Made by a program: the position numbers and the translations under genes. Source: Thermodesulfobacteriota bacterium (GTDB lineage Bacteria > Desulfobacterota > Desulfarculia > JACQYL01). From it: a stretch of DNA of 64,000 nt. Where the stretch lies: NCBI GenBank assembly GCA_963675595.2, contig CAXXLZ010000001.1, positions 256,001-320,000 of the forward strand, read 5' to 3'. Positions within the stretch are counted from its first letter, which is position 1; each line of letters opens with the position of its first letter. Positions 34,439 to 51,136 of this stretch are shown here, piece after piece. Under the pieces are notes generated by a model. It had not been told where the DNA came from. It saw only the letters and a program-made list of their open reading frames with translations, and searched no databases.

Positions 34439-37285
34439 ATGGCATTATCCGTTGTTAACAATCTTGCATCTTTTTCCGCCCAGCAGGCCCTCACCAAGAG
34501 CACGTACCATCTTCAGAAGGCCCTGAATCATCTTTCCACCGGCTACCGCATCAACAGTGCGGCGGACGATCCCTCCGGCTTGGCCATTTCCGAGCGATTT
34601 CGCGGTCAGATTCGAGGCCTGGAGCGCGCCACGGCCAACGCCCTGGATGCTCAGTCCATGCTGCAGACCGCCGAAGGCTCGCTGGGGGAAACGCACGCCA
34701 TTCTTCAGCGCATGCGGGAACTGGCCGTTCAGGCGGCCAACGGCGTGCTCACCGGAAGCGACAGACAGGAACTGCAGCGCGAGGTGGATCAATTAAAGGA
34801 AGAAATCGACCGCATCGCCACGGCTACCGAGTTCAATACCAAGAAGCTTCTCGATGGATCCTCGGCCGCCCTGTGGAGCGCGGACGGATCGGATATCACC
34901 GCGATCATCCGAGGTCGCGTTGTGGAAGGAAACTACAAGCTGGTCAAGAACGCCGAGCCCCTGACCAATCATGTGTTGAAAACGGACATTTTTCGTTTGA
35001 AGGACGGAGCGATCTCACAAGAGGAGGAAGGGTCCGCCAACCAGTTGCGCTTCACCTTCGGTGGGGATGACGGTGAATTAACCGTGGCGGGCGGATCGAC
35101 CCTGAATTTCCGTTTCAACTTCGACGGTGTGAACAACATCGATATCGGGGTAACGGCGGGATCCGCGGACGGAAGCGGATTTACGGACGCCGAATACCTG
35201 GCGAGGGTGATCAACGCCAACTCGACCATCAGCCGATACGTCGAGGCCGAATTGGTTTCCGAAGGCGATATTGTTTTGCGGTCCAAAGAAGTCACGGAAA
35301 TCGGAGACAATTATACTCTGCAACTGGTCACCGCCGGGGGCGGGGCTTCCGCGGTGGCGGCGTGGCAGCCCAACATTACCAATTGGGGCGGAGATGAGTT
35401 GAGCTCGACCCAGACGAGCAACAACCTCTGGACTACCGCGGTACGATTCGCCGATTTCGATCTTGTTGTGGGGTCGACGGCATCGGGAACCATGGGAACC
35501 TTCGGCACGGACCGCGCGACGGCCGCCGAGAACAAAGTGATCCAATATGTGAGTAATGCGGCGGAGCTCGAGGGCGGCGACTACGAAATCACCACTGTGG
35601 CGGCGGATAACATCCCCAGCGGCCTGCAGGGTGCGGATGGTTTGAGCGTCGACGCCGGCTTGCTCATGGGCGCCTATATGAAGAGCTCTTCCACTGCGGA
35701 AGTCACCACGATTCAGGCCGCCGTGGACGCAAACCATTACGTGATCGTCGAGGTCACCGGGGCCGGCGGGAGCGGCGTGGTGGACCTCAAAGTCTCCTGG
35801 GATCAGGGCGCCACCTGGACCAACATCGGCAACTACCATGAGGGCGCGTCAATTAATAAGCTAGCCGGGGATCCGGATAACTGGTTCTCCTTGCAGTTCA
35901 ACGGCGATATGGCTACGGGGGACCGTTTGCTCATCGGATTGCAGAATGGAATCGCAGCGACCTCCAACGTGGCGCGGCTCACGGGTCCCGCCAACGAATG
36001 GACCAACATAGCGGATTCCGACGGTGGATGGGACCCGAGGGAGAACCTCGCCGGCGCGGACTTCCAGTATTTCAATCATGGGCTTTGGGAAGATTTGGGT
36101 GCCAACCCGGGAAGCAAAACCGATACTTTGACCTTTGCCCGCATGGACGAGGAAGGACGCGTAACCTTTGGCACGCTGGACGTCACCTGGGGCACCGATG
36201 CCAACTTCGAGAGCAGAAGTTCGAGCATCAACATTCTCCAAGGGGGAGACGTCGCCGGCTTGACCACGGAACTGTCCAAAATCGACCGGTTCTACGACGC
36301 CAATGGAAATTTTATTCTGGGCGATAACGGCAAGTGGATCGACATCTACACCGCCGCGGGAGATCAGGCTTCTTTTTATGTGGACGGCGGCGACACGGTA
36401 AAGGAGCTTGCCGATAAGATCGAGCAGATCATCAGCCTGGAGGCCACCTCTCAAAACTGGGAAGGCCTGGGATTGGGCACCGTACTGGATTCCGAAGGCG
36501 AGAATCATGTGGTGGACTTTGTTACCAACGCCACGGAGAACTCCGACGAAGCGGTCAAGGGAACCCTGCTCATTCGGTCGCCGAAACAAGGATTGAGCGG
36601 AATCCTTTACTTCAGCGCGGAAGAAGCCGTGCTCAACGCTCTGAGTCTGGCCACGATTAAGGACCCGTCCGAGGACGTGGACCCGTTGACGGTTGAGGTA
36701 TACGATGCGCACACGGGGGAATTGATCGGACAGGATACGGTAAGCGACAACGTGCTTCACGGCGTCATCCAGGGAGTTGATGTTCTGGTGGACGCCAATG
36801 TGGACATCAATTACTCCTGGAACGAAAACACCAAAGAAATCGACTTCTACAGCGCCACCGAAGACCAGATCGAATACCTGCACGTTGTGGACAACTCGGT
36901 GAATTTTCAGATCGGCGCCAACCCCGGGCAAATCATGGAAGCTCATATCTCACAGATGGATGCTTTGGGGCTCGGAATCGAAAACGTGCTGGTCGTGAAC
37001 CAAGCCACGGCAGTGGCCGCCTTGGACAGCATCGATGAGGCCATCCAACGGGTGTCTTCAGAACGCGCCCGACTGGGTGCCTATGTCAACCGACTCGATT
37101 TCACCATTTCGAACCTGGCCGTTCAGGAGGAGAATCAGATCGCAGCCGAGTCCCTGATTCGCGACCTCGACATGGCCATGGCCATCTCGGAGATGACCCA
37201 GTACCAGATTCTGCAGCAGGTGGGCGTTGCCATGTTGGCTCAGGCCAATGCCATGCCTCAGAGCCTCCTCAGCCTGCTCGGATAA
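34439..37285 (+). CDS. fliC: Flagellin 1 (948 aa)
   Basis: LSTGYRINSAADDPSGLAISE, LQRMRELAVQAAN, FQIGAN, RARLGAYVNRL, AMLAQAN. Confidence 0.96.
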   Translation: MALSVVNNLASFSAQQALTKSTYHLQKALNHLSTGYRINSAADDPSGLAISERFRGQIRGLERATANALDAQSMLQTAEGSLGETHAILQRMRELAVQAANGVLTGSDRQELQREVDQLKEEIDRIATATEFNTKKLLDGSSAALWSADGSDITAIIRGRVVEGNYKLVKNAEPLTNHVLKTDIFRLKDGAISQEEEGSANQLRFTFGGDDGELTVAGGSTLNFRFNFDGVNNIDIGVTAGSADGSGFTDAEYLARVINANSTISRYVEAELVSEGDIVLRSKEVTEIGDNYTLQLVTAGGGASAVAAWQPNITNWGGDELSSTQTSNNLWTTAVRFADFDLVVGSTASGTMGTFGTDRATAAENKVIQYVSNAAELEGGDYEITTVAADNIPSGLQGADGLSVDAGLLMGAYMKSSSTAEVTTIQAAVDANHYVIVEVTGAGGSGVVDLKVSWDQGATWTNIGNYHEGASINKLAGDPDNWFSLQFNGDMATGDRLLIGLQNGIAATSNVARLTGPANEWTNIADSDGGWDPRENLAGADFQYFNHGLWEDLGANPGSKTDTLTFARMDEEGRVTFGTLDVTWGTDANFESRSSSINILQGGDVAGLTTELSKIDRFYDANGNFILGDNGKWIDIYTAAGDQASFYVDGGDTVKELADKIEQIISLEATSQNWEGLGLGTVLDSEGENHVVDFVTNATENSDEAVKGTLLIRSPKQGLSGILYFSAEEAVLNALSLATIKDPSEDVDPLTVEVYDAHTGELIGQDTVSDNVLHGVIQGVDVLVDANVDINYSWNENTKEIDFYSATEDQIEYLHVVDNSVNFQIGANPGQIMEAHISQMDALGLGIENVLVVNQATAVAALDSIDEAIQRVSSERARLGAYVNRLDFTISNLAVQEENQIAAESLIRDLDMAMAISEMTQYQILQQVGVAMLAQANAMPQSLLSLLG

Positions 37286-38345: not shown

Positions 38346-41162
38346 ATGGCATTGACTGTTGTCAATAATATTGCTTCATTCGCTGCTCAGAAGGCCCTCA
38401 GTTCGAGTACCACTCACCTGCAGAACGCCCTGAACAGCCTTTCCACCGGCCTCCGCATCAACAGCGCGGCGGACGACCCGTCCGGACTGGCGATTTCCGA
38501 GCGGTTCCGCAGCCAGATTCGAGGCTTGGAACGCGCCACGTCCAACGCCTTGGACGCTCAGTCCATGCTGCAAACCGCGGAAGGCTCCCTCGGAGAAACC
38601 CACGCCATCCTGCAACGTATGCGCGAACTGGCGGTTCAAGCGGCCAACGGCGTGTTGACCGCAAGCGACCGGCAGGAAGTTCAGCGCGAAGTGGACCAGC
38701 TCAAAGAAGAAATCAACCGCATCGCCAACACCACCGAGTTCAACACCAAGAAACTGCTGGACGGTTCCTCCACGGCCCTTTGGAGCGCGAACAATTCCGA
38801 CATTGAAGCGGTCATTCGCGGAAAGGTGGCCGAAGGCAACTACAAGCTGGTGAAGAGTGCGGAGCCGCTGAGCAACCAGGTACTGAAGACGGATATCTTC
38901 CGGCTGAAAGACGGGGCCATCTCCCAGGCGGAAGAGGGTTCTCCGAACCAGATGCGGTTCACTTTCGGCGGATCGGATGCGACAATAGACGGAACCGGGG
39001 CGTCGACATTGACGTTCCGGTTCAACTTCGACGGCGTGAACAACATAGACGTATCGTTGAACTCGGCGTCGGGAGACGCCGCCCTCTTAACCGACGCGCG
39101 GTATTTGGTGGATGCCCTCAACGCCAACGCGACCATCAGCCAATACGTCGAAGTGGAGCTGGTGTCCAACTCGGACATTATCATTCGGTCCAAGGGGGTA
39201 ACGGACGAAAGCGACAATTATACCCTTCAGCTGGTGACCGGCGGAGGCGGTGCGTCGGCCGTGGCGGCGTGGCAGGCCAACATCACCAACTGGAGCGGAG
39301 ATGAGCTGAGTTCGACCCAGGCGACCAACAACCTCTTTACTTCCGCGGTCCGTTTCGCGGATTTCGATCAGATCGAAGGTCAGGTGAACTCGGGAGTGAC
39401 GGGCACCTTCGGAACGGACCGAACCACGGCCGCGCAGAACAAGGTGATCCAGTATGTGAGCAACGCCGAGAACCTCGAAGGGGGCGATTACGAAATCCTT
39501 ACCCTGTCGGCGAACGACTTTCCGAGCGGTACGGCGGGCGGAATCGGCGCTGTGGACTCCGCGTGGATTTTGGGCGCTCATCGACAAAGTTCGTCCACGG
39601 GAGAGATCGTGACCCTTACGGCGAGCGTTGACGAGAACCAGTACGTCATCGTCGAAGTGACCGGCGCAGGGGGCAGCGGCGTGGTGGACCTGAAGGTTTC
39701 CTGGGACCAGGGAGAAACCTGGACCAATGTTGGGAACTATCATGATGGGACTTCCATCAATAAGACTACCGGAGACCCGGCCAACTGGTTCTCCATGGAC
39801 TTGAACGGTGACTTGGCCACCGGCGACCGGTTCCTTTTCGGTCTGCAGGACCAATTGGATACGACCTCCAACTATGCCAGGCTGACGGGTCCCGCCAACG
39901 ATTGGTCGACCAGCTTGACCGCGGATCTGACGGAAGACTACGAGAACTTCAACCACGGGTTATGGCAGGACCTGGGAGCCAATCCGGGTGAGAAGACCCA
40001 TACCCTGACGCTTGCGAGCATGGACGAGGAAGGACGGGTGACCTTCGGCACCCTCGATGCCACCTGGGGAATGGATGACGATTTCGAGAGCCGAAGCTCG
40101 AACATCAAGATTCTCGAGGGCGGCGACGTTGCCGGTCTGACCACGGAGTTGTCCAAGATCGATCGATTCTACGACTCCAGCGGGAACTTCGTCCTGGGCG
40201 ACAGCGGCAAATGGATCGATGTCTACACCGCCGACGGAGACAACGCGTCGTTCTACGTGGACGGCGGTGATACGGTTCAGGAGCTTGCCGACAAGCTGGA
40301 ACAGATCATCAGCCTAACCTCGACTTCCCAAAACTGGGATGGTCTGGGGCTGGGCACGGTGCTGGACTCCGACGGCGAGAACCACGTGGTGGATTTCGTT
40401 ACCAACGCCACGGAGAACTCCGACGAAGCCGTCGAAGGAACCATGATCATTCGTTCGCCCAAACAAGGGGTCAACGGCTACCTCTATTTCAGTGCGGAGG
40501 AAGACCTGCTCAACGCCCTGAGTTTGGCCACCATCCAGGACCCCAAGGAAGACATCGATCCTCTCACGGTCACCGTATACAACGCCCACACGGGCGAGTT
40601 GATCGGCGAGGACACGGTGAGCGACAACGTCCTGCACGGAGTCATCCAGGGTGTGGACGTAATGGTGGACGCCAATGTGGACATCTCTTACTCCTGGAAC
40701 GATGATACTCGAGAGATCGACTTCTACAGTTCGGAAGGAGTGCAGGAAGAGTACCTCCACGTGGTGGACAATTCGGTGAACTTCCAGATCGGCGCCAACC
40801 CGGGCCAAGTGATGGAAGCCTACATCACACAGATGGATACCGTGGGATTGGGCGTTCAAAACGTTCTGGTGGTGAACCAGGAGACGGCCTCCGATGCCAT
40901 GTCCACCATCGACGACGCCATCCAAAGGGTGTCCTCGGAACGCGCCAGGCTGGGCGCTTACGTGAACCGTCTCGACTTTACCATCTCGAACCTGGCGGTT
41001 CAGGAGGAAAACCAGATCGCGGCGGAATCTTTGATCCGCGACCTGGATATGGCCAAGGCCATTTCCGAAATGACCCAGTACCAGGTGTTGCAGCAGGTGG
41101 GTGTGGCCATGCTGGCCCAGGCCAATACCTTGCCTCAGATGGTGCTGTCCCTACTCCGGTAA
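38346..41162 (+). CDS. fliC: Flagellin 2 (938 aa)
   Basis: Conserved flagellin N- and C-terminal motifs; paralog of its neighbours. Confidence 0.96.
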   Translation: MALTVVNNIASFAAQKALSSSTTHLQNALNSLSTGLRINSAADDPSGLAISERFRSQIRGLERATSNALDAQSMLQTAEGSLGETHAILQRMRELAVQAANGVLTASDRQEVQREVDQLKEEINRIANTTEFNTKKLLDGSSTALWSANNSDIEAVIRGKVAEGNYKLVKSAEPLSNQVLKTDIFRLKDGAISQAEEGSPNQMRFTFGGSDATIDGTGASTLTFRFNFDGVNNIDVSLNSASGDAALLTDARYLVDALNANATISQYVEVELVSNSDIIIRSKGVTDESDNYTLQLVTGGGGASAVAAWQANITNWSGDELSSTQATNNLFTSAVRFADFDQIEGQVNSGVTGTFGTDRTTAAQNKVIQYVSNAENLEGGDYEILTLSANDFPSGTAGGIGAVDSAWILGAHRQSSSTGEIVTLTASVDENQYVIVEVTGAGGSGVVDLKVSWDQGETWTNVGNYHDGTSINKTTGDPANWFSMDLNGDLATGDRFLFGLQDQLDTTSNYARLTGPANDWSTSLTADLTEDYENFNHGLWQDLGANPGEKTHTLTLASMDEEGRVTFGTLDATWGMDDDFESRSSNIKILEGGDVAGLTTELSKIDRFYDSSGNFVLGDSGKWIDVYTADGDNASFYVDGGDTVQELADKLEQIISLTSTSQNWDGLGLGTVLDSDGENHVVDFVTNATENSDEAVEGTMIIRSPKQGVNGYLYFSAEEDLLNALSLATIQDPKEDIDPLTVTVYNAHTGELIGEDTVSDNVLHGVIQGVDVMVDANVDISYSWNDDTREIDFYSSEGVQEEYLHVVDNSVNFQIGANPGQVMEAYITQMDTVGLGVQNVLVVNQETASDAMSTIDDAIQRVSSERARLGAYVNRLDFTISNLAVQEENQIAAESLIRDLDMAKAISEMTQYQVLQQVGVAMLAQANTLPQMVLSLLR

Positions 41163-42310: not shown

Positions 42311-45157
42311 ATGGCATTGACTGTTGTCAACAACATTGCTTCCTTTGCTGCTCAGAAGGCGCTCAGCTCGAGTACCACTCACCTGCAGAACGCCCTGAAC
42401 AGCCTTTCCACCGGCCTTCGCATCAACAGCGCGGCGGACGATCCGTCCGGACTGGCGATTTCCGAGCGGTTCCGCAGCCAGATTCGGGGCTTGGAACGCG
42501 CCACGTCCAACGCCTTGGACGCCCAGTCCATGCTGCAAACCGCGGAAGGTTCTCTCGGAGAAACCCACGCCATCCTGCAACGTATGCGCGAACTGGCGGT
42601 TCAGGCGGCCAACGGCGTGTTGACCGCAAGCGACCGGCAGGAAGTTCAGCGCGAAGTGGACCAGCTCAAGGAAGAGATCAACCGCATCGCCAACACCACC
42701 GAGTTCAACACCAAAAAGCTACTGGACGGCTCCTCCACGGCCCTCTGGAGCGCGAACAATTCCGACATTGAAGCGGTGATTACGGGAAAGGTGTCCGAAG
42801 GCAACTACAAACTGGTGAAGAGCGCCGAGCCGCTCAGTAACCATGTGTTGAAGACGGACATTTTCCGGCTGAAAGACGGAGCCATCTCGCAGGCCGAAGA
42901 GGGGTCCGCGAACCAGATGCGCCTCACTTTCGGTGGAGACGACGGAGAAGTGACCGTCGCAGGCGGATCGACCCTGAACTTCCGGTTCAACTTCGACGGT
43001 GTAAACAACATCGATATCGGAGTAACCGCAGGATCCGCCGACGGCACGGGCTTTACGGACGCTGAATATCTGGCGCGGGCCATCAACGCCCACTCGACCA
43101 TCAGCCAGTACGTGGAGGCGGAACTGGTGTCCGAGGGCGATATCATTATTCGCGCCAAGGATGTGACGGACGACAGCGACAACTACACGCTGCAAATGGT
43201 GACCGCCGGAGGCGGCGCGTCGGCCGTGGCGGCGTGGCAGCCCAACATCACCAATTGGGGCGGTGATGAACTTAGCTCGACCCAGACGAGCAATAACCTC
43301 TGGACTTCCGCGGTCCGTTTCGCGGATTTCGATCAGATCGAAGGTACGGTCAACTCGGGAGTCACGGGCACCTTCGGTACGGATCGGACCACCGCCGCCG
43401 AGAACAAGGTGATCCAGTACGTCAGCAACGCCGCCGATCTCGAAGCGGGCGACTATCAGATCACAACGGTGGCAACGGGCGACATCCCCAGCGGTTTGCA
43501 GAGTACGGACGGTCTGACCGTGGATCAGGGTCTGCTCATGGGCGCTTATCTCACGAGCACGTCCACGGCGGAAGTCACGACGATTCAGGCGGCCGTGGAT
43601 GAGAATCAGTACGTTATCGTCGAGGTGACGGGAGCCGGCGGCAGCGGCGCGGTGGACCTGAAGGTTTCCTGGGACCAGGGCGCCACATGGTCCAGTGTCG
43701 GGAACTACCACGAAGGAACCTCCATCAACAAGGTCGCCGGAGACCCGGACAACTGGTTCACGCTGGAATTCACCGGGGACATGGCGACCGGAGACCGCTT
43801 GCTTATCGGGCTCCAGAACGGGATTGCAGCGACTTCCAACGTGGCGAGGCTGACCGGTCCGGCCAACGAATGGACCAATGTAACGGATTCCGACGGAGAT
43901 TGGGACCCGAGGGAAAACCTGGCCGGGGCGGATTACCAAACCTTCAATCATGGGCTGTGGGAAGACCTGGGGGCCAATCCCGGTGAGAAGACCCATACCC
44001 TGACGTTTGCGAGCATGGACGATGAAGGGCGGGTGACCTTCGGCACCCTCGACGCCACCTGGGGCGCGGATGACGACTTCGAGAGCCGAAGCTCGAGCAT
44101 CAAGATTCTCGAGGGCGGCGACGTCGCCGGTCTGACCACGGAGTTGTCCAAGATCGATCGGTTCTACGACTCCAGCGGGAACTTCGTCCTGGGCGACAGC
44201 GGCAAATGGATCGATATCTACACCGCAGAAGGAGACAACGCGTCGTTCTATGTGGACGGCGGCGACACGGTGCAGGAGCTTGCCGACAAGCTGGAGCAGA
44301 TCATCAGTCTCACCTCGACTTCCCAGAACTGGGATGGTCTGGGGCTGGGCACGGTGCTGGACTCCGACGGCGAGAACCACGTGGTGGATTTCGTTACCAA
44401 CGCCACGGAGAACTCCGACGAAGCCGTCGAAGGAACCATGATCATTCGTTCGCCCAAACAAGGGGTCAACGGCTACCTCTATTTCAGTGCGGAGGAAGAC
44501 GTACTCAACGCCCTGAGTTTGGCCACCATCCAGGACCCCAAAGAAGACATCGATCCTCTCACGGTCACCGTATACAACGCCCACACGGGTGAGTTGATCG
44601 GTGAGGATACGGTGAGCGACAACGTCCTGCACGGAGTCATCCAGGGTGTGGACGTGATGGTGGACGCCAATGTGGACATCTCCTACTCCTGGAACGAGGA
44701 TACTCGAGAGATCGACTTCTTCAGTTCGGAAGGAGTGCAGGAAGAGTACCTCCACGTGGTGGACAATTCGGTGAACTTCCAGATCGGCGCCAACCCGGGC
44801 CAAGTGATGGAAGCCTATATCACACAGATGGACACCGTGGGATTGGGCGTTCAGAACGTTCTGGTGGTGAACCAGGCGACGGCCTCCGATGCCATGTCCA
44901 CCATCGACGACGCCATCCAGAAGGTGTCCTCGGAACGCGCCAGGCTCGGCGCCTACGTGAACCGTCTCGACTTCACCATCTCGAACCTGGCGGTTCAGGA
45001 GGAAAACCAGATCGCGGCGGAATCTTTGATCCGCGACCTGGATATGGCCAAGGCCATTTCCGAAATGACCCAGTATCAGGTGTTGCAGCAGGTGGGTGTG
45101 GCCATGCTGGCCCAGGCCAACACGTTGCCTCAGATGGTGCTGTCCTTACTCCGGTAA
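42311..45157 (+). CDS. fliC: Flagellin 3 (948 aa)
   Basis: Conserved flagellin termini; patchwork similarity to flagellins 1 and 2. Confidence 0.96.
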   Translation: MALTVVNNIASFAAQKALSSSTTHLQNALNSLSTGLRINSAADDPSGLAISERFRSQIRGLERATSNALDAQSMLQTAEGSLGETHAILQRMRELAVQAANGVLTASDRQEVQREVDQLKEEINRIANTTEFNTKKLLDGSSTALWSANNSDIEAVITGKVSEGNYKLVKSAEPLSNHVLKTDIFRLKDGAISQAEEGSANQMRLTFGGDDGEVTVAGGSTLNFRFNFDGVNNIDIGVTAGSADGTGFTDAEYLARAINAHSTISQYVEAELVSEGDIIIRAKDVTDDSDNYTLQMVTAGGGASAVAAWQPNITNWGGDELSSTQTSNNLWTSAVRFADFDQIEGTVNSGVTGTFGTDRTTAAENKVIQYVSNAADLEAGDYQITTVATGDIPSGLQSTDGLTVDQGLLMGAYLTSTSTAEVTTIQAAVDENQYVIVEVTGAGGSGAVDLKVSWDQGATWSSVGNYHEGTSINKVAGDPDNWFTLEFTGDMATGDRLLIGLQNGIAATSNVARLTGPANEWTNVTDSDGDWDPRENLAGADYQTFNHGLWEDLGANPGEKTHTLTFASMDDEGRVTFGTLDATWGADDDFESRSSSIKILEGGDVAGLTTELSKIDRFYDSSGNFVLGDSGKWIDIYTAEGDNASFYVDGGDTVQELADKLEQIISLTSTSQNWDGLGLGTVLDSDGENHVVDFVTNATENSDEAVEGTMIIRSPKQGVNGYLYFSAEEDVLNALSLATIQDPKEDIDPLTVTVYNAHTGELIGEDTVSDNVLHGVIQGVDVMVDANVDISYSWNEDTREIDFFSSEGVQEEYLHVVDNSVNFQIGANPGQVMEAYITQMDTVGLGVQNVLVVNQATASDAMSTIDDAIQKVSSERARLGAYVNRLDFTISNLAVQEENQIAAESLIRDLDMAKAISEMTQYQVLQQVGVAMLAQANTLPQMVLSLLR

Positions 45158-45661: not shown

Positions 45662-45974
45662 CAGAGCTGATTTCCACCCATCTCGTGTGGGAGGACGCTT
45701 GATCGCTTCCCGGCAAGTTCGAAAAGACATGGGGAGCGTAAAGGGTGTGGTATGTCCTGAGAAGCGAATGTTTCCCTCCGCCCTTGTATCTCATCTCTCG
45801 CCGTGCTTCGAAGGTCCCGAAGTACTCTCCGGCTTCGGGGCTTCTATTCCGATGCTGCGGTCCGGCGCCTCTTCTTGGCCTCGCTCCCAATCCCCAACCG
45901 CTTGTCACCCGTTGTGGTTTCGCCTACAATACGATTCCTTTGGCAAATCCAGACGAGGAAGGAATCTATTGGTC

Positions 45975-46451
45975 ATGACTTGGAAGCGTAAGGTAATGCG
46001 TCTCTTTTACTTGGGCGCGGTGGTTTGTCTGGTTGGAACGCTGGCTGTTTCCTCGGCCGCCGCGGCGAAAGTCCGGTGGGAGTCCTATGACGAAGGGATC
46101 GCTCGAGGAAAGAAGGAGCAGAAGAAGATACTGGTGAAGTTTCACGCGGATTGGTGCACTTACTGCAAAGAGATGGAGCGGACCACCTTTTCCGATCCGG
46201 AAATCGTGGCCTACATCAATCGCTATTTTGTTCCCGTGTCCGTGGATACGGATAAACAGAAGGGGCTTGCCGTCAGGTACCGGGTGAACAGTCTTCCGGC
46301 TTCCTGGTTCTTGGATTATAAAGGTGAGCAGATCCTTCCCGTGCCGGGATATGTACCCCCAAAAATGTATCTTTATTTCCTGGAATGGATTGCGGAGGAC
46401 GGGTACAAGGATACGTCCCTGAAGGACTTTCTGAAGAATAAGAAGGAATGA
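45975..46451 (+). CDS. Exported thioredoxin-family protein
   Basis: Signal peptide and FHADWCTYCK CxxC motif. Confidence 0.88.
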   Translation: MTWKRKVMRLFYLGAVVCLVGTLAVSSAAAAKVRWESYDEGIARGKKEQKKILVKFHADWCTYCKEMERTTFSDPEIVAYINRYFVPVSVDTDKQKGLAVRYRVNSLPASWFLDYKGEQILPVPGYVPPKMYLYFLEWIAEDGYKDTSLKDFLKNKKE

Positions 46452-46527: not shown

Positions 46528-47268
46528 TCAGAGCTTATTCACGAACCATTCGGGTGCCACGCTTTGCAGGTAGCTGTTGATGGTCGCCAGGCTGTCCGTG
46601 AAGATCAACAGACCCACCAGAACCAACAATATCCCGGCGAAGAGGTTGAATACCGGGAGCCACCGTTTGATTCGGCTGAGCAGTGGAAGAAAATGACCCA
46701 CCGCCAGGGACGCGAGAAAGAACGGGACCGCCATTCCGAGGGAATAAGTGGTCAGCAGGATGATTCCCTGGGTTGCATTCTGATGGGTCCCCGCAACCAT
46801 TAGAATCGACCCGAGAATGGGCCCCACGCACGGAGTCCAGCCCACCGCGAAAGTGATTCCCACCAACGTCGTTCCCAAATAGCCGGCAGGCTTGTGCCGC
46901 AAGTGAACCGAGAATTCCTTCATCAGAAAAGGAAGCTGAAACTTGTATGAGAGGGCGATGAGCAGGCCGAAGAGGATGATCAATATCCCCCCGACCTTTC
47001 GGATGATATCCCCGTAGTCGAAAAAGAAACTCCCGAGGGTGCTGAAAGAGAAGCCCAGCGCCACAAAAGCGATCGAAAAACCGAGGATGAAGAAAAGGGA
47101 GTGGATGATCACCCGTCTACGGTATACGGGCTGGTCCTCAATGGCGATCTGATCGTAGCTGAGGCCGGTAATAAAGCTCAAATAGGAAGGGAACAACGGA
47201 AGGGTGCAGGGGGACAGAAAGGTCAACACCCCGGCGGTGAAAGCGATAAGGATGGTCACATCGGCCAA
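46528..47268 (-). CDS. ccdA: Cytochrome c biogenesis / DsbD transmembrane protein CcdA
   Basis: AGVLTFLSPCTLPL and GWTPCVGPILG motifs. Confidence 0.92.
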   Translation of the reverse strand: MADVTILIAFTAGVLTFLSPCTLPLFPSYLSFITGLSYDQIAIEDQPVYRRRVIIHSLFFILGFSIAFVALGFSFSTLGSFFFDYGDIIRKVGGILIILFGLLIALSYKFQLPFLMKEFSVHLRHKPAGYLGTTLVGITFAVGWTPCVGPILGSILMVAGTHQNATQGIILLTTYSLGMAVPFFLASLAVGHFLPLLSRIKRWLPVFNLFAGILLVLVGLLIFTDSLATINSYLQSVAPEWFVNKL

Positions 47269-47350
47269 GCTGCTCCCCCCTGAAATTAAAGTCTTCCGTT
47301 GACGTGGATGTTTGTAAGTGGATTCAGGACCTCACCGGACCGGGGCGGGG

Positions 47351-47509
47351 TCATGAGTTGTCCTCTTCTCCCATATCGTCCCGCTTTTTCGAGTCACCGA
47401 CCCGACACGAGGACCGCATTCACGTATCCACCCCCAGTCCGGGAAGCACCACCGCTTGCAGCAGCACCCATAAGCCGACGACGATCAGAAAAATCCAAAC
47501 TTCGTTCAT
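47351..47509 (-). CDS. Small single-TM protein, putative selenoprotein (52 aa if TGA at 47420-47422 is Sec)
   Basis: GGAG SD; MNEVWIFLIVVGLWVLLQAVVLPGLGVDT-(TGA)-MRSSCRVGDSKKRDDMGEEDNS; SECIS-like hairpin after the TGA. Confidence 0.6.
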
Positions 47510-47539
47510 TGTATTCTCCAACGCCCGGTTGGAGCCTGC

Positions 47540-47761
47540 TCAACCTCAGGAAAAGGGTGAAGACGACGGTCCGCAACTCGAACGGGCTGATGAGGCAACG
47601 CTCCCGTTTAGAGGACCGGAGCAGGTCGCAAAGGCGGATAGGAGTCTCTTTGGGTTGGATGCTCCACACTTGGGGCATTTGACCTCTGCAACCTTTCCCA
47701 AGGAGACGATTTCTTCAAAGTGGTGTGAGCATTGGTCGCAACAAAACTCGTACAACGGCAT
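47540..47761 (-). CDS. FmdB-family zinc-ribbon protein, putative C-terminal Sec-Gly
   Basis: MPLYEFCCDQC...CPKCG...KRLLSAF; GGAGG SD; ends TCC TGA GGT TGA with a hairpin starting 11 nt after the first TGA. Confidence 0.78.
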
Positions 47762-47925
47762 ACGTTTTTTCCTCCGGCGCACTGTACGCTCCTTCCAGGA
47801 GCGTCGTATGAGTTCAATTCACTGTTAAACATTTTCCAGTTTTTTTCAAGGAGCATATCCCTCCCGGACCGGGAGCCGTTCCTTCGGCCGCTCCGGAGAC
47901 TCCGTTTCAGCGGCTTCAGGTTTCA

Positions 47926-48141
47926 TCAGCCTCACCCGCAACAGGATCTTTTAACGGCTGGACTAGGCGATCCTTCCCGGCCTTGTTCGGCACTTGTTCG
48001 TTTCTTGACGTCGCATCCCGAACGGCCCGTATTCCGGCTTCCGCAATGGGGGCATTTCTCTTTTCGCAGCCTCCACCCTCTCGCGACAGCCGAAAATACG
48101 CTCTCACAGTCCCCACACACGAATGTTACAGGCGCTTTCAT
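47926..48141 (-). CDS. Small zinc-ribbon protein, putative C-terminal CCG-Sec-Gly
   Basis: CGDC and CPHC pairs; AGGAGG SD; ends TGC GGG TGA GGC TGA TGA followed by a hairpin. Confidence 0.65.
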
Positions 48142-48194: not shown

Positions 48195-48986
48195 TTACAC
48201 GTTTCTATGGATAGGAGTGAAGAAAACCTTTTCCGAAGGCTTCGCGTCCAGAAACCCGGCGACGGGACTCAGGTCGGCCAAGCGACGGGTAAGGTTGGGC
48301 CAAAACCCCTCTCCACCCAAGTGGAGCCACCCGCCGATGTGGACGAGAACACCGCCTGATGCGGCCTTTGTCCGAGCCCAAAGACGCCGGATTTTACGCT
48401 CCATGGTATCGGTCCTTCGATTCCATTCCACCGACGTATCGCCATCCATAAGAATCAGCTCCCAAGGCGCAGACTTTCCGTGAAAGCGGACGGCCACTTG
48501 CTTTCTGAGGTTTTCGAAACTCTCGGATGGGTGACGGGGCGCGAGTCTAAGCATGGCCTCGAGATTGGGCATCGAGATCAGTTCTTCGAGAAATGGGAGC
48601 TTGTTTTTTGAGGATTCCGAGTCGTCCGTGCAAACCACCGTTGTAGACCTGGAATGGGCGTAGTCCCGGCTCGCGCTGAACTCGAAAGGCAGGGCGATCT
48701 GGTTCCTGATGTTCCGAAATGGCTCGAGCTGGAGGATGGACTCGATCTCAAGGTTTCTTTTTTTTGCCAGAAGACGCAGCCGCTCATCGAGGAGTTGCAG
48801 TTGTCTACGGGCGTGCTTCATTCGGAAACGGACTGCATAGGGACTGGTTTCGACACTGACGATCGTGGGACCGATGCGGTCGAGCATTCGCTTAAGCAGT
48901 TCTTCCCCTCTCGGGTCCCTGTGGATCGTACCAAGAAGGAAAAGACGGGCTTCCGGAACGGCTGTGGAGTCCGCCGAAGGGCTCAA
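48195..48986 (-). CDS. Hypothetical protein
   Basis: 263-aa ORF overlapping the HDOD gene stop; LLGTIHRDP and HIGGWLH motifs. Confidence 0.65.
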   Translation of the reverse strand: MSPSADSTAVPEARLFLLGTIHRDPRGEELLKRMLDRIGPTIVSVETSPYAVRFRMKHARRQLQLLDERLRLLAKKRNLEIESILQLEPFRNIRNQIALPFEFSASRDYAHSRSTTVVCTDDSESSKNKLPFLEELISMPNLEAMLRLAPRHPSESFENLRKQVAVRFHGKSAPWELILMDGDTSVEWNRRTDTMERKIRRLWARTKAASGGVLVHIGGWLHLGGEGFWPNLTRRLADLSPVAGFLDAKPSEKVFFTPIHRNV

Positions 48987-50140: not shown

Positions 50141-51136
50141 TTATGAACCACCTTCATGTTGCGGTGTCCTGTGAGCGCCTTCCGTTGTTTTGTATCCTGT
50201 TTGAGGATTCGCGCGGCTACAGACCACATGACGCAACGAATCCGCCGCCGCCGGGGAAATTACCGCCCCGGACTCCGTAAAATCATCCAGAGGAGCGTGA
50301 GCGGCGGGCGTCTGAAAATAGGCCACCTTTGTAGCCGCGCCGTTGGCGAATTCCCATGAGAACGCCTCGGATTCATCCTGCAGCCTGACAAGGCTCTCCC
50401 TTGGGAGGCCGGAAGAAATGTCCGCCGTCAGCAGTTGATCAAGTGTTTCCTTTCCCGTGATCACAACGAGGCGGGGACGGAAATACTCAAGAAATCGCCG
50501 AGTGTGCATTTCAAAACAAGGGGCTGCGGCATTTCTCACACCCGTGCCTTCCATATCCGTCTTACAGTGGACCAGTGGAAGGATGATGGAATGCTTTCCG
50601 AGTATACCTTCGGGGTCGTCGTAGCCAAGCGTTTCCAAAGCGGAACGGTTCAAAATGGAGCGGGTCACCGCGGATAGGAGAGTCCAGAGTTCATGAACAT
50701 GGTGCTTGTCCTGTGCCGCGCCTTCGGGTTTTGAATAGACCAGGGCTCCATCCCCCGACCTTCTTCGAATGGTTACAGTTCCGAAAGTCGTCAGGGATTG
50801 ATCTTCCCCGGGCAGTATGAACCTTCCCAATCGGTCCGCGAAACGCCGGGTGTAGAAACTCTCGTACGACGGTAGGTCGTGGCTGAGCGTGGGCACATTC
50901 CGTTCTCCCGGGCACAGTCGCCCCGCCTCAACCAGAAAGAGGAGGGGGATTCTTCTTTCACCTTGAACCTCGGGAATGAGCGTCGGCTCGATGCCGGTCC
51001 ATGGCTCTGGAAGGTGAAGTTCGGACTTATGCCGCAGAGCGGCGGACTTGAACTGATTTCCGACGATTTCGGCGCACGAGTTGGGCTGCTTTTTAAGCGC
51101 CTCCATCATGCGCGCACATCTCCACAAAGTTTGCAA
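50141..51136 (-). CDS. Hypothetical protein, possibly distant uracil-DNA-glycosylase-like fold
   Basis: Long ORF; LPEPWTG, PLVHCK and FRPRLVVITGK loosely recall UDG-like proteins. Confidence 0.5.
   Translation of the reverse strand: MQTLWRCARMMEALKKQPNSCAEIVGNQFKSAALRHKSELHLPEPWTGIEPTLIPEVQGERRIPLLFLVEAGRLCPGERNVPTLSHDLPSYESFYTRRFADRLGRFILPGEDQSLTTFGTVTIRRRSGDGALVYSKPEGAAQDKHHVHELWTLLSAVTRSILNRSALETLGYDDPEGILGKHSIILPLVHCKTDMEGTGVRNAAAPCFEMHTRRFLEYFRPRLVVITGKETLDQLLTADISSGLPRESLVRLQDESEAFSWEFANGAATKVAYFQTPAAHAPLDDFTESGAVISPAAADSLRHVVCSRANPQTGYKTTEGAHRTPQHEGGS

What the first reader, a model, noticed from the sequence alone, without database searches (positions are those of the whole stretch)
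47351..47509. Unannotated 52-aa single-TM protein with an in-frame TGA
Seen: absent from the ORF track. Good SD, hydrophobic N-terminus, LPGLGVDT-TGA-MRSSC, then TCGGGTC-GGT-GACTCGA with the GGU loop 21 nt after the TGA, on top of a GTCC..CG/CG..GGAC lower stem. It lies just upstream of ccdA. Inference: a membrane-anchored UxxxxC redox peptide.
Basis: partly seen in the sequence, partly recalled or inferred. Interest (0 to 1): 0.7.

Follow-up and report, generated by a model that had tools for sequence, protein, structure and literature searches.

The report
Small membrane selenoprotein gene beside ccdA
A 52-codon gene for a one-helix membrane protein most likely reads its internal TGA as selenocysteine; its large, unnamed family was listed once in 2008 as an "Unknown" selenoprotein and never studied.

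Summary
On the minus strand, GGAG plus ATG 47509 opens 29 hydrophobic codons, TGA 47422-47420, 22 more in-frame codons and TGA 47353-47351. The stated hairpin follows the first TGA.

The hairpin alone is weak evidence. 302 of 1971 TGA triplets in the window pass the same bacterial SECIS model.

The decisive evidence is comparative:
- A full HMMER search with the read-through peptide found 23 small homologs aligned across the TGA.
- A profile search found 1557, all "hypothetical", with no Pfam or NCBIfam model.
- Of 131 homologs inspected, the TGA column holds Cys in 78 and Trp in 40. Nine stop exactly there. The Cys five residues later is conserved in 122.
- The Trp forms behave as TGA misread under code 4.
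- The window's tail adds about 20 bits to a Cys-form profile, more than any of 200 shuffles.

The same family appears with U at this column as the row "Unknown" in the 2008 GOS selenoproteome.

Verdict: a real, unannotated Sec/Cys-x4-Cys membrane protein gene and a new member of a barely described family. Its function, its link to ccdA and the host's Sec machinery remain untested.

The parts
47516..47519 (-). Shine-Dalgarno GGAG, 6 nt before the start codon
   Evidence: Read directly from the sequence.
47423..47509 (-). Codons 1-29 from ATG 47509: short acidic N-terminus, transmembrane helix, then the conserved LP.LG..T segment
   Evidence: Translation. The family alignment starts at this Met. 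AlphaFold2 gives a helix at 2-24 with pLDDT about 90. This part alone scores 36.3 bits against a profile of 78 Cys-forms.
47420..47422 (-). In-frame TGA, codon 30, proposed selenocysteine
   Evidence: Of 131 homologs, the column holds Cys in 78 and Trp in 40, and 9 end exactly here. A published GOS data set writes U at this column.
47354..47419 (-). Codons 31-52, read-through tail MRSSCRVGDSKKRDDMGEEDNS, with the family's conserved second Cys (codon 35) at 47405-47407
   Evidence: The tail raises the profile score from 36.3 to 56.1 bits with X at codon 30. 200 tail shuffles gave mean 37.8 and maximum 50.6. Cys35 is invariant in alignments A1 and A3.
47373..47419 (-). SECIS-like stem-loop: upper stem 47405-47399 with 47395-47389, apical loop GGU 47398-47396, lower stem 47414-47411 with 47381-47378
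   Evidence: Fold at -16.6 kcal/mol. It meets the four constraints of the published bacterial model quoted. The background pass rate is 15%. The fold depends on context.
47351..47353 (-). Terminal TGA stop of the 52-codon frame
   Evidence: Family members run 42-86 aa where start and stop calls look sound.
46528..47268 (-). ccdA (DsbD-type transmembrane thiol-disulfide electron carrier), 82 nt downstream on the same strand
   Evidence: Pfam DsbD_TM, E 6.8e-20. No terminator-like or promoter-like site lies between the two genes.
47546..47782 (-). FmdB-family zinc-ribbon gene upstream on the same strand (likely start ATG 47761); it ends in TGA in the same frame as the small gene
   Evidence: TIGR02605, E 2.9e-15. 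Pfam Zn_ribbon_8, E 5e-14. Sequence.
45975..46451 (+). Convergent thioredoxin-like gene with a hydrophobic N-terminus and a CxxC motif (the start is approximate)
   Evidence: Thioredoxin_2, E 8.9e-17, and Thioredoxin_7, E 1.8e-14. Translation.

Best explanation
This is a real, unannotated gene for a 52-residue bitopic inner-membrane protein.

What it encodes. Codon 30, UGA, is decoded as selenocysteine. The product has one N-terminal transmembrane helix. Directly after the helix comes a juxtamembrane Sec30-x4-Cys35 pair, followed by a short disordered charged tail.

What family it belongs to. It is a member of a large family of about 50-residue proteins that has never been named. Many lineages have Cys-x4-Cys. 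One clade, which includes this gene, has TGA at the first Cys.

How decoding would work (inferred). SelB with Sec-tRNA would recognise the stem-loop whose GGU loop lies 21 nt after the UGA while the ribosome holds the UGA.

What it would do (inferred, about 0.45). The selenol/thiol pair sits at the cytoplasmic face of the membrane and cycles between a selenenylsulfide and the reduced form. In this locus it may act with the co-oriented ccdA and the neighbouring thioredoxin-like gene.

Which steps are shown and which are inferred. Shown: the gene, the family, the Sec/Cys column and the in-frame conserved tail. Inferred: Sec insertion in this host, the topology, the redox chemistry and the partnership with CcdA.
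For: - Homologs span the TGA. A full HMMER search of 1.84 billion representatives with the read-through peptide gave 24 hits at E <= 1e-3 (best 3.3e-7). 23 of them are small proteins aligned across the TGA into the tail.
- The family is large and unnamed. A profile of 20 sequences found 1557 proteins at E <= 1e-3. Every source-given name among the 120 listed is 'hypothetical protein'. Pfam and NCBIfam gave no meaningful match for 20 of 20 members.
- Sec/Cys column. Of 131 homologs, the column holds Cys in 78, Trp in 40, Gly in 2, Ser in 1 and Arg in 1, and 9 stop there at 29 aa. The Cys five residues on is kept in 121 of the 122 that reach it.
- Trp means TGA read under code 4. For all 10 truncated forms, including the window's, the five nearest full-length relatives are Trp forms (50 of 50). 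Trp outside the core is 32 of 1814 residues in Trp forms against 3 of 2279 in Cys forms. N-terminal run-ons over 15 aa occur in 9 of 40 against 1 of 78. Trp forms lie on short contigs (median 645 bp, 0 of 33 over 10 kb). Truncated forms lie on long ones (median 13,020 bp, 5 of 9 over 10 kb) (numbers).
- Clustering. With the column masked, the TGA state needs 7 changes on a tree of 126 rows, against a shuffled mean of 36 (0 of 500 shuffles as low). The window's five nearest rows are all Trp forms.
- Conserved tail. Against a profile of the 78 Cys forms alone, the window scores 36.3 bits for the first 29 aa, 56.1 with the tail and X at codon 30, and 65.3 with C. 200 tail shuffles reached at most 50.6.
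- Independent evidence from DNA reads. Dataset S1 of PMC2398784 lists 15 read translations under '#Unknown'. By eye, 14 of them show the same W..LLQ..ILP..G..T-U-x4/5-C pattern with U at this column. Table 1 of that paper counts them as a selenoprotein family.
- The hairpin meets the four constraints of the published bacterial SECIS model.
- TGA is an ordinary stop for 18 of 29 Pfam-supported genes in the window, so a general TGA reassignment is excluded.
Against: - No Sec machinery is in the window. ARAGORN finds no tRNA, and none of the 40 ORFs scanned against Pfam matches a Sec-machinery family. Whether the host can insert Sec is unknown.
- The hairpin is not specific. 15% of TGA triplets in the window pass the model. 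No Rfam family matches, even at E <= 10.
- The hairpin is not the favoured fold once upstream RNA is included: pair probability 0.05-0.29, and z only -0.52 for a 66-nt stretch.
- I could not fetch the DNA of any homolog. The TGA in the Trp and truncated forms is therefore inferred from protein-level patterns, and SECIS covariation is untested.
- The match to the GOS sequences was made by eye only.
- Four homologs lack Cys/Sec at the column (Gly, Gly, Ser, Arg). One Gly form carries an NCBI source name on a 202-kb contig and so is presumably a real Gly codon. The first Cys is therefore not indispensable everywhere.
- The Cys forms used for the profile were themselves found with queries that included the window's tail.
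- The link to ccdA is not conserved from the ccdA side: 0 of 10 loci.
Confidence: 0.75

Rival explanations
1. The TGA is a true stop. The product is a 29-residue membrane micro-protein, or a decaying gene. The conserved tail is then the remnant of a recent Cys-to-stop mutation in a Cys-form ancestor, and the hairpin is coincidental.
For: TGA is the commonest stop in the window, in 18 of 29 genes. A single base change turns TGT or TGC into TGA. The hairpin passes a model that 15% of TGA triplets pass, and it is not the favoured fold in long contexts. No Sec machinery is seen in the window.
Against: The TGA state is shared by a diverse clade and is not private to this gene. There are 9 other truncated clusters and 40 Trp-form clusters, all nearest to each other, and the state is clustered on the tree. 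The tail stays conserved in those forms. Published reads carry TGA with the tail in frame. The window's own tail scores about 20 bits above shuffles, which is unexpected for untranslated sequence diverged to 55-59% identity in the N-terminal part.
Confidence: 0.1
2. The gene and Sec decoding are the same as in the best explanation, but the Sec/Cys-x4-Cys pair is a soft-metal site (Cu, Zn, Hg, Fe or an Fe-S cluster shared between two or more copies), not a redox couple. The protein would then be a membrane-tethered metal chaperone or sensor.
For: Two thiolates at a membrane surface, with a disordered tail and no thioredoxin fold. The 2026 catalogue read in passages lists several metal-handling selenoproteins, such as a MerT-like transporter, a Cu/Zn efflux transporter and CopZ-like proteins. 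A zinc-ribbon gene lies immediately upstream. The predicted cytoplasmic location is reducing, which favours free thiolates.
Against: There are only two ligands per chain. No metal-transport gene is adjacent; the neighbours are thiol-disulfide genes. No Pfam metal-binding family matches at E <= 1.
Confidence: 0.3
3. It is a chance ORF or a regulatory leader of ccdA. The short frame would only serve translation-coupled control through the surrounding RNA structure.
For: The 141 nt around it fold more stably than shuffles (-62.3 kcal/mol, z -2.56, 3 of 200). An 11-nt inverted repeat (47335-47345 with 47432-47442) brackets the region. The gene lies directly upstream of ccdA with no terminator between them.
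Against: A protein family of at least 1557 clusters with invariant residues cannot be a chance frame. CcdA relatives in 10 other genomes have no such leader.
Confidence: 0.02

Closest known systems
'Unknown' selenoprotein family of the GOS selenoproteome (Zhang and Gladyshev 2008, PMC2398784: Table 1 row and Dataset S1 header '#Unknown')
   Same: By eye, 14 of the 15 listed read translations show the same hydrophobic stretch, W..LLQ..ILP..G..T, then U, then a Cys four or five residues on and a charged tail. U sits at the column of the window's TGA. The authors count it as a selenoprotein family with 15 sequences in 9 samples.
   Different: The passages I read give no description, motif, domain or function for it, and report 0 Cys homologs. 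Here Cys forms are the majority, 78 of 131. Most GOS forms have U-x5-C spacing; the window has U-x4-C. The family is not named in Table 1 of the 2022 catalogue (read whole) or in the passages of the 2026 catalogue that I saw. I made no computed alignment to the GOS sequences.
Eukaryotic SELENOK / SELENOS (recalled from general knowledge, not from a call)
   Same: A small single-pass membrane protein with an N-terminal anchor and a disordered cytosolic tail carrying Sec. SELENOS is known to form a Cys-Sec selenenylsulfide.
   Different: There is no sequence relationship: no Pfam family matched at E <= 1. Here the Sec is juxtamembrane, not near the C-terminus. The SECIS is a bacterial type inside the coding region.
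ScsA/ScsB-type and CcdA/DsbD thiol-disulfide modules (the Scs comparison is recalled, not from a call)
   Same: In this locus a small Cys-motif membrane protein is encoded next to a DsbD-type transmembrane electron carrier and a thioredoxin-like protein.
   Different: There is no homology to any named partner. The small gene is absent from 10 of 10 loci around CcdA relatives. The predicted cytoplasmic location of the motif differs from periplasmic substrates.
FeoB-associated Cys-rich small membrane proteins (name recalled)
   Same: About 50 residues: an N-terminal helix followed by a Cys motif.
   Different: No Pfam match for any of 20 members at E <= 1. The Cys pattern is different.

Membership tests
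Bacterial selenoprotein gene | In-frame TGA aligned with Cys in homologs | tested here: met
   The column holds Cys in 78 of 131 homologs. It is invariant C30 in the alignment of the window plus 64 Cys forms.
Bacterial selenoprotein gene | Conserved coding sequence continues in frame after the TGA | tested here: met
   36.3 bits without the tail and 56.1 with it. 200 shuffled tails reached at most 50.6. Cys35 is invariant in both alignments.
Bacterial selenoprotein gene | Other members carry TGA at the same position | tested here: inconclusive
   Inferred from 40 Trp forms and 9 forms truncated exactly there. A published data set writes U at this column (compared by eye). I read no homolog DNA.
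Bacterial selenoprotein gene | SECIS stem-loop: apical loop of 3-9 nt with G in its first two positions, upper stem of 4-16 bp, 16-37 nt after UGA, MFE <= -7.5 kcal/mol (model as quoted) | tested here: met
   Loop GGU, 7-bp stem, 21 nt spacing, -16.6 kcal/mol. The test is weak: 302 of 1971 TGA triplets pass. The fold depends on context. There is no Rfam hit.
Bacterial selenoprotein gene | Host encodes selA, selB, selC (tRNA-Sec) and selD | not testable with these tools
   None lies in the 64-kb window. The rest of the genome was not available. The nearest CcdA relative in genome contigs is only 49% identical by tblastn.
Bacterial selenoprotein gene | Selenium found in the protein | not testable with these tools
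   This needs 75Se labelling or mass spectrometry.
GOS 'Unknown' selenoprotein family (PMC2398784) | Shared sequence pattern with U at the same column | tested here: met
   14 of 15 listed sequences match the family's conserved columns by eye. No computed alignment was made, because sequences from a paper were not entered into tools.
Catalogued prokaryotic selenoprotein families that have Pfam or NCBIfam models | Match to the family model | tested here: not met
   No family at E <= 1 for the window's peptide. Only scattered chance-level hits for 20 of 20 members.
CcdA/DsbD-associated accessory protein | Conserved gene neighbourhood with ccdA | tested here: not met
   0 of 10 loci around CcdA relatives hold a family member, either upstream or anywhere in up to 20 kb. 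The neighbourhoods of the family's other members could not be fetched.

The most novel reading that the evidence does not exclude
The family is a widespread, overlooked class of membrane-tethered selenol/thiol redox mediators acting at the cytoplasmic face of the membrane. It would be a bacterial counterpart in architecture to eukaryotic SELENOK/SELENOS. In loci like this one it would hand electrons to, or gate, CcdA-type transmembrane disulfide relays in place of soluble thioredoxin.
Probability: 0.12. Interest if true: 0.75.

Novelty: new member of a known kind. Interest (0 to 1): 0.5.

Why it matters
- The gene is invisible to ordinary annotation. It is either called as a 29-aa fragment or missed, as its relatives are in public collections.
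- The family has at least 1557 clusters but no Pfam or NCBIfam model and no name. Its only trace in print that I found is an undescribed table row and a data-set header from 2008.
- That paper reported 0 Cys homologs. The many Cys forms found here give the Sec/Cys pairing that is the usual criterion for a selenoprotein family.
- The family is a concrete target for a curated model. Such a model would correct many truncated or mistranslated calls.
- It also offers one of the smallest bacterial selenoproteins for testing UGA recoding. The whole SECIS lies within a 22-codon tail.
- It would be a rare example of a membrane-anchored bacterial selenoprotein whose chemistry (redox or metal) is open.

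Tried and rejected
- Word-indexed protein search with the peptide found only the window's own 29-aa fragment.
- Rfam found nothing, at gathering thresholds over the whole window and at E <= 10 over 47250-47560.
It found 10 loci, the best 49% identical by tblastn, with no small gene in any.
- tblastn of three family members against plasmids gave two chance-level hits (E 4 and 6) for one and none for the other two.
- The 'longer' profile search gave 3 Trp forms with run-on N-termini and no domain fusion.
- ESM Atlas: for a Cys form, the nearest cluster is an unnamed 'hypothetical protein' cluster. There was no usable named cluster.
- Complex prediction on two copies of the Cys-form homolog P0004 with a 64-row alignment returned 'no answer' (score 0.01, mark 0.42). 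That is no evidence either way.
- AlphaFold2 gives only a helix plus coil, so no fold search was run.
- The antisense ORFs 47304-47828 and 47299-47682, and the out-of-frame ORF 47394-47678, have no Pfam match and overlap the supported zinc-ribbon gene. I rejected them as genes.
- A general TGA reassignment (code 4 or 25) is rejected: 18 of 29 supported genes end in TGA.
- Literature searches found no description of the family beyond the 2008 paper.
- bioRxiv supplements, and the PDF and XLS supplements of PMC2398784, could not be read. The figures of all papers are not held.

Full report
**What is there.** The feature lies on the minus strand.
- GGAG (47519-47516) sits six bases before ATG 47509.
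- 29 codons follow (MNEVWIFLIVVGLWVLLQAVVLPGLGVDT), then TGA at 47422-47420.
- 22 further codons follow in the same frame (MRSSCRVGDSKKRDDMGEEDNS), then TGA at 47353-47351.
- The ORF listing reports only a 33-aa ORF from an upstream TTG.
- The gene sits between an FmdB-type zinc-ribbon gene (47546-47782; TIGR02605 E 2.9e-15) and ccdA (46528-47268; DsbD_TM E 6.8e-20), all on one strand.
- A convergent thioredoxin-like gene ends at 46451.
- No terminator-like or sigma-70-like site separates the small gene from ccdA.

**The RNA hairpin.**
- A 7-bp upper stem closes a GGU loop 21 nt after the TGA, above a lower stem. The energy is -16.6 kcal/mol, z -1.87, and 9 of 200 shuffles fold as well.
- This meets the four constraints of the consensus bacterial SECIS model as given in the Fig. 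2 legend of PMC13188914 (section 5 read).
- The test is weak. In my own simple version of that model, 302 of 1971 TGA triplets on both strands of the window pass, and 55 of 1971 pass at -16.6 kcal/mol or better.
- The fold is context-dependent. The upper-stem pair probability is 0.82-1.0 in the 51-nt context, 0.29 in 66 nt, and 0.05-0.07 in 90-210-nt stretches that include upstream RNA.
- In 16 contexts that start at or after the TGA, which resemble the state when a ribosome covers the upstream arm, the probability is at least 0.6 in 13 and at most 0.15 in 3.
- Rfam has no match.
- I therefore count the hairpin as compatible with a SECIS, not as proof.

**The family.**
- The word-indexed search found only the window's own 29-aa fragment.
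- The exhaustive HMMER search of 1.84 billion representatives with the read-through peptide (C for U) returned 24 proteins at E <= 1e-3, the best at 3.3e-7. 23 are small proteins whose alignment runs from the N-terminus across the TGA into the tail. The 24th (P0024, a 590-aa repeat protein) is unrelated.
- I aligned the window with 19 of the 23. Four with long N-terminal run-ons were left out. The invariant residues are M1, P23, G26 and C35. W14, L17, Q18, L22 and T29 are nearly invariant.
- A profile of that alignment found 1557 proteins at E <= 1e-3, of which 120 were listed. The only source-given name is 'hypothetical protein', and none has a precomputed Pfam domain.
- Pfam and NCBIfam (release 20.0) gave nothing meaningful for 20 of 20 members at E <= 1.
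- The Atlas placed a Cys form in an unnamed cluster of 123 members.

**The TGA column.** I counted 131 homologs, that is 134 stored proteins less the window's two forms and P0024.

| State at the TGA column | Homologs |
|---|---|
| Cys | 78 |
| Trp | 40 |
| Protein ends there (29 aa) | 9 |
| Gly | 2 |
| Ser | 1 |
| Arg | 1 |

The Cys five residues later is present in 121 of the 122 that reach it.

Several results show that the Trp forms are TGA codons read by gene callers under code 4.
- For each of the 10 truncated forms, the window's included, the five nearest full-length relatives by N-terminal identity are Trp forms, 50 of 50.
- Trp outside the conserved core is 32 of 1814 residues in the Trp forms, against 3 of 2279 in the Cys forms.
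- N-terminal run-ons over 15 aa occur in 9 of 40 Trp forms, against 1 of 78 Cys forms.
- The three proteins found by the 'longer' search are all Trp forms with run-on N-termini.
- Trp forms sit on short contigs (median 645 bp, 0 of 33 over 10 kb). Truncated forms sit on long ones (median 13,020 bp, 5 of 9 over 10 kb). Cys forms lie in between (median 2,106 bp, 16 of 75 over 10 kb) (lengths).
- With the column masked, a quick maximum-likelihood tree of 126 rows and 40 columns, poorly resolved, needs 7 changes of the TGA state, against a shuffled mean of 36 (0 of 500 as low). The window's five nearest rows are all Trp forms.
- The window itself is not a code-4 organism. 18 of 29 Pfam-supported genes end in TGA, including ccdA and the zinc-ribbon gene.

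**The tail is coding.** I built a profile from the 78 Cys forms only and scored the window against it.

| Window sequence scored | Bits |
|---|---|
| First 29 residues | 36.3 |
| Full length, X at codon 30 | 56.1 |
| Full length, C at codon 30 | 65.3 |
| 200 shuffles of the tail | mean 37.8, sd 3.1, maximum 50.6 |

One caveat applies: the Cys forms were retrieved with queries that contained the window's tail. Even so, they share the motif among themselves.

**Prior art.**
- Table 1 of the 2022 catalogue of prokaryotic selenoprotein families (PMC9312934, read whole) names no such family. Neither do the passages of the 2026 catalogue that I saw (PMC13188914).
- Searching the supplements of the GOS paper (PMC2398784) for family motifs led to Dataset S1, header '#Unknown'. 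It lists 15 read translations. By eye, 14 carry the same pattern, with U exactly at this column and a Cys four or five residues later.
- Table 1 of that paper has the row 'Unknown': no domain, no motif, 15 selenoprotein sequences, 9 samples, 0 Cys homologs. It stands among families called previously described.
- I found no description of it in the passages read of the 2005 Sargasso paper or the 2007 Olavius paper.
- So the family has been counted as a selenoprotein before, from reads with in-frame TGA, but has never been characterised.
- 'GOS_A' of the same paper is a different protein.

**Structure and topology.**
- AlphaFold2 with 65 rows gives a helix at 2-24 (pLDDT about 90) and coil after it (pLDDT 45-64). 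The mean pLDDT is 69.8.
- I compared the flanks of the helix in 57 Cys forms with trustworthy starts, out of the 78. The N flank is acidic (K+R 0.42, D+E 1.26). The 15 residues after the helix are basic (K+R 1.25, D+E 0.37). 43 of 57 have more K+R on the C side and 6 have fewer.
- By the positive-inside rule the motif faces the cytoplasm.

**Mechanism.** Four things are shown: a conserved gene, a Sec/Cys column, an in-frame conserved tail and a compatible SECIS. The rest is inferred.
- UGA30 would be decoded by SelB and Sec-tRNA.
- The Sec30/Cys35 pair at the inner face of the membrane would form a redox couple (my preference, about 0.45) or a soft-metal site (about 0.3).
- A link to ccdA rests only on adjacency in this one locus. 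Ten loci around CcdA relatives (38-50% identical) have no family member.
- The neighbourhoods of other family members could not be fetched.

**Verdict.** The reading as a membrane-anchored U-x4-C selenoprotein is well supported by comparative evidence. The redox role and the ccdA partnership are open. The gene is a new member of a known but undescribed kind.

Noticed in passing
window 34439-37285, 38346-41162, 42311-45157 (+): Three tandem giant flagellin genes of 948, 938 and 948 aa. Each has Flagellin_N and Flagellin_C ends and about 700 residues between them with no Pfam match.
   Followed up: no
window 47335-47345 and 47432-47442: An 11-nt inverted repeat, 91% complementary, brackets the whole recoding region from just before the internal TGA to just after the final stop. 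The 141 nt fold at -62.3 kcal/mol (z -2.56, 3 of 200 shuffles as good). In that fold the SECIS-like hairpin is not formed. Its purpose is unknown.
   Followed up: partly
window 47546-47548 and 47509: The upstream zinc-ribbon gene ends in TGA in the same frame as the small gene, so a code-4 gene call would fuse the two. The same kind of run-on explains the long N-termini of several Trp-form database entries.
   Followed up: partly
window 47932-48141 (-): A second small zinc-ribbon-like ORF of 69 aa lies further upstream. Its Zn_ribbon_8 match (E 2.5e-5) is below the curated cut-off.
   Followed up: no
window 45687-46451 (+) and 46528-47268 (-): The thioredoxin-like ORF and CcdA each give sub-threshold matches to different parts of the NCBIfam model for TsoB, a rhodanese/DsbD-fusion-like selenoprotein (E 1e-18 and 1.8e-15, far below the cut-off). 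The pair looks like a split DsbD-type module encoded convergently.
   Followed up: no
homologs P0013, P0019, P0096, P0100: Four family members have Gly, Gly, Ser or Arg at the Sec/Cys column while keeping the second Cys. P0019 carries an NCBI source name from an Aridibacter assembly on a 202-kb contig, so at least that Gly is probably a real codon.
   Followed up: no
Dataset S1 of PMC2398784, header '#Unknown': Most of the published Sec forms have five residues between U and the Cys. The window and most homologs seen here have four. One of the 15 listed sequences does not fit the family at all.
   Followed up: no
window 48195-48986 (-) and 50141-51136 (-): Two ORFs of 263 and 331 aa on the same strand upstream have no Pfam match. 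The first also has no NCBIfam match.
   Followed up: no
window 47445-47468 (-): A 10-bp hairpin lies inside the transmembrane coding part of the small gene, in the minimum-free-energy fold of the 141-nt stretch.
   Followed up: no
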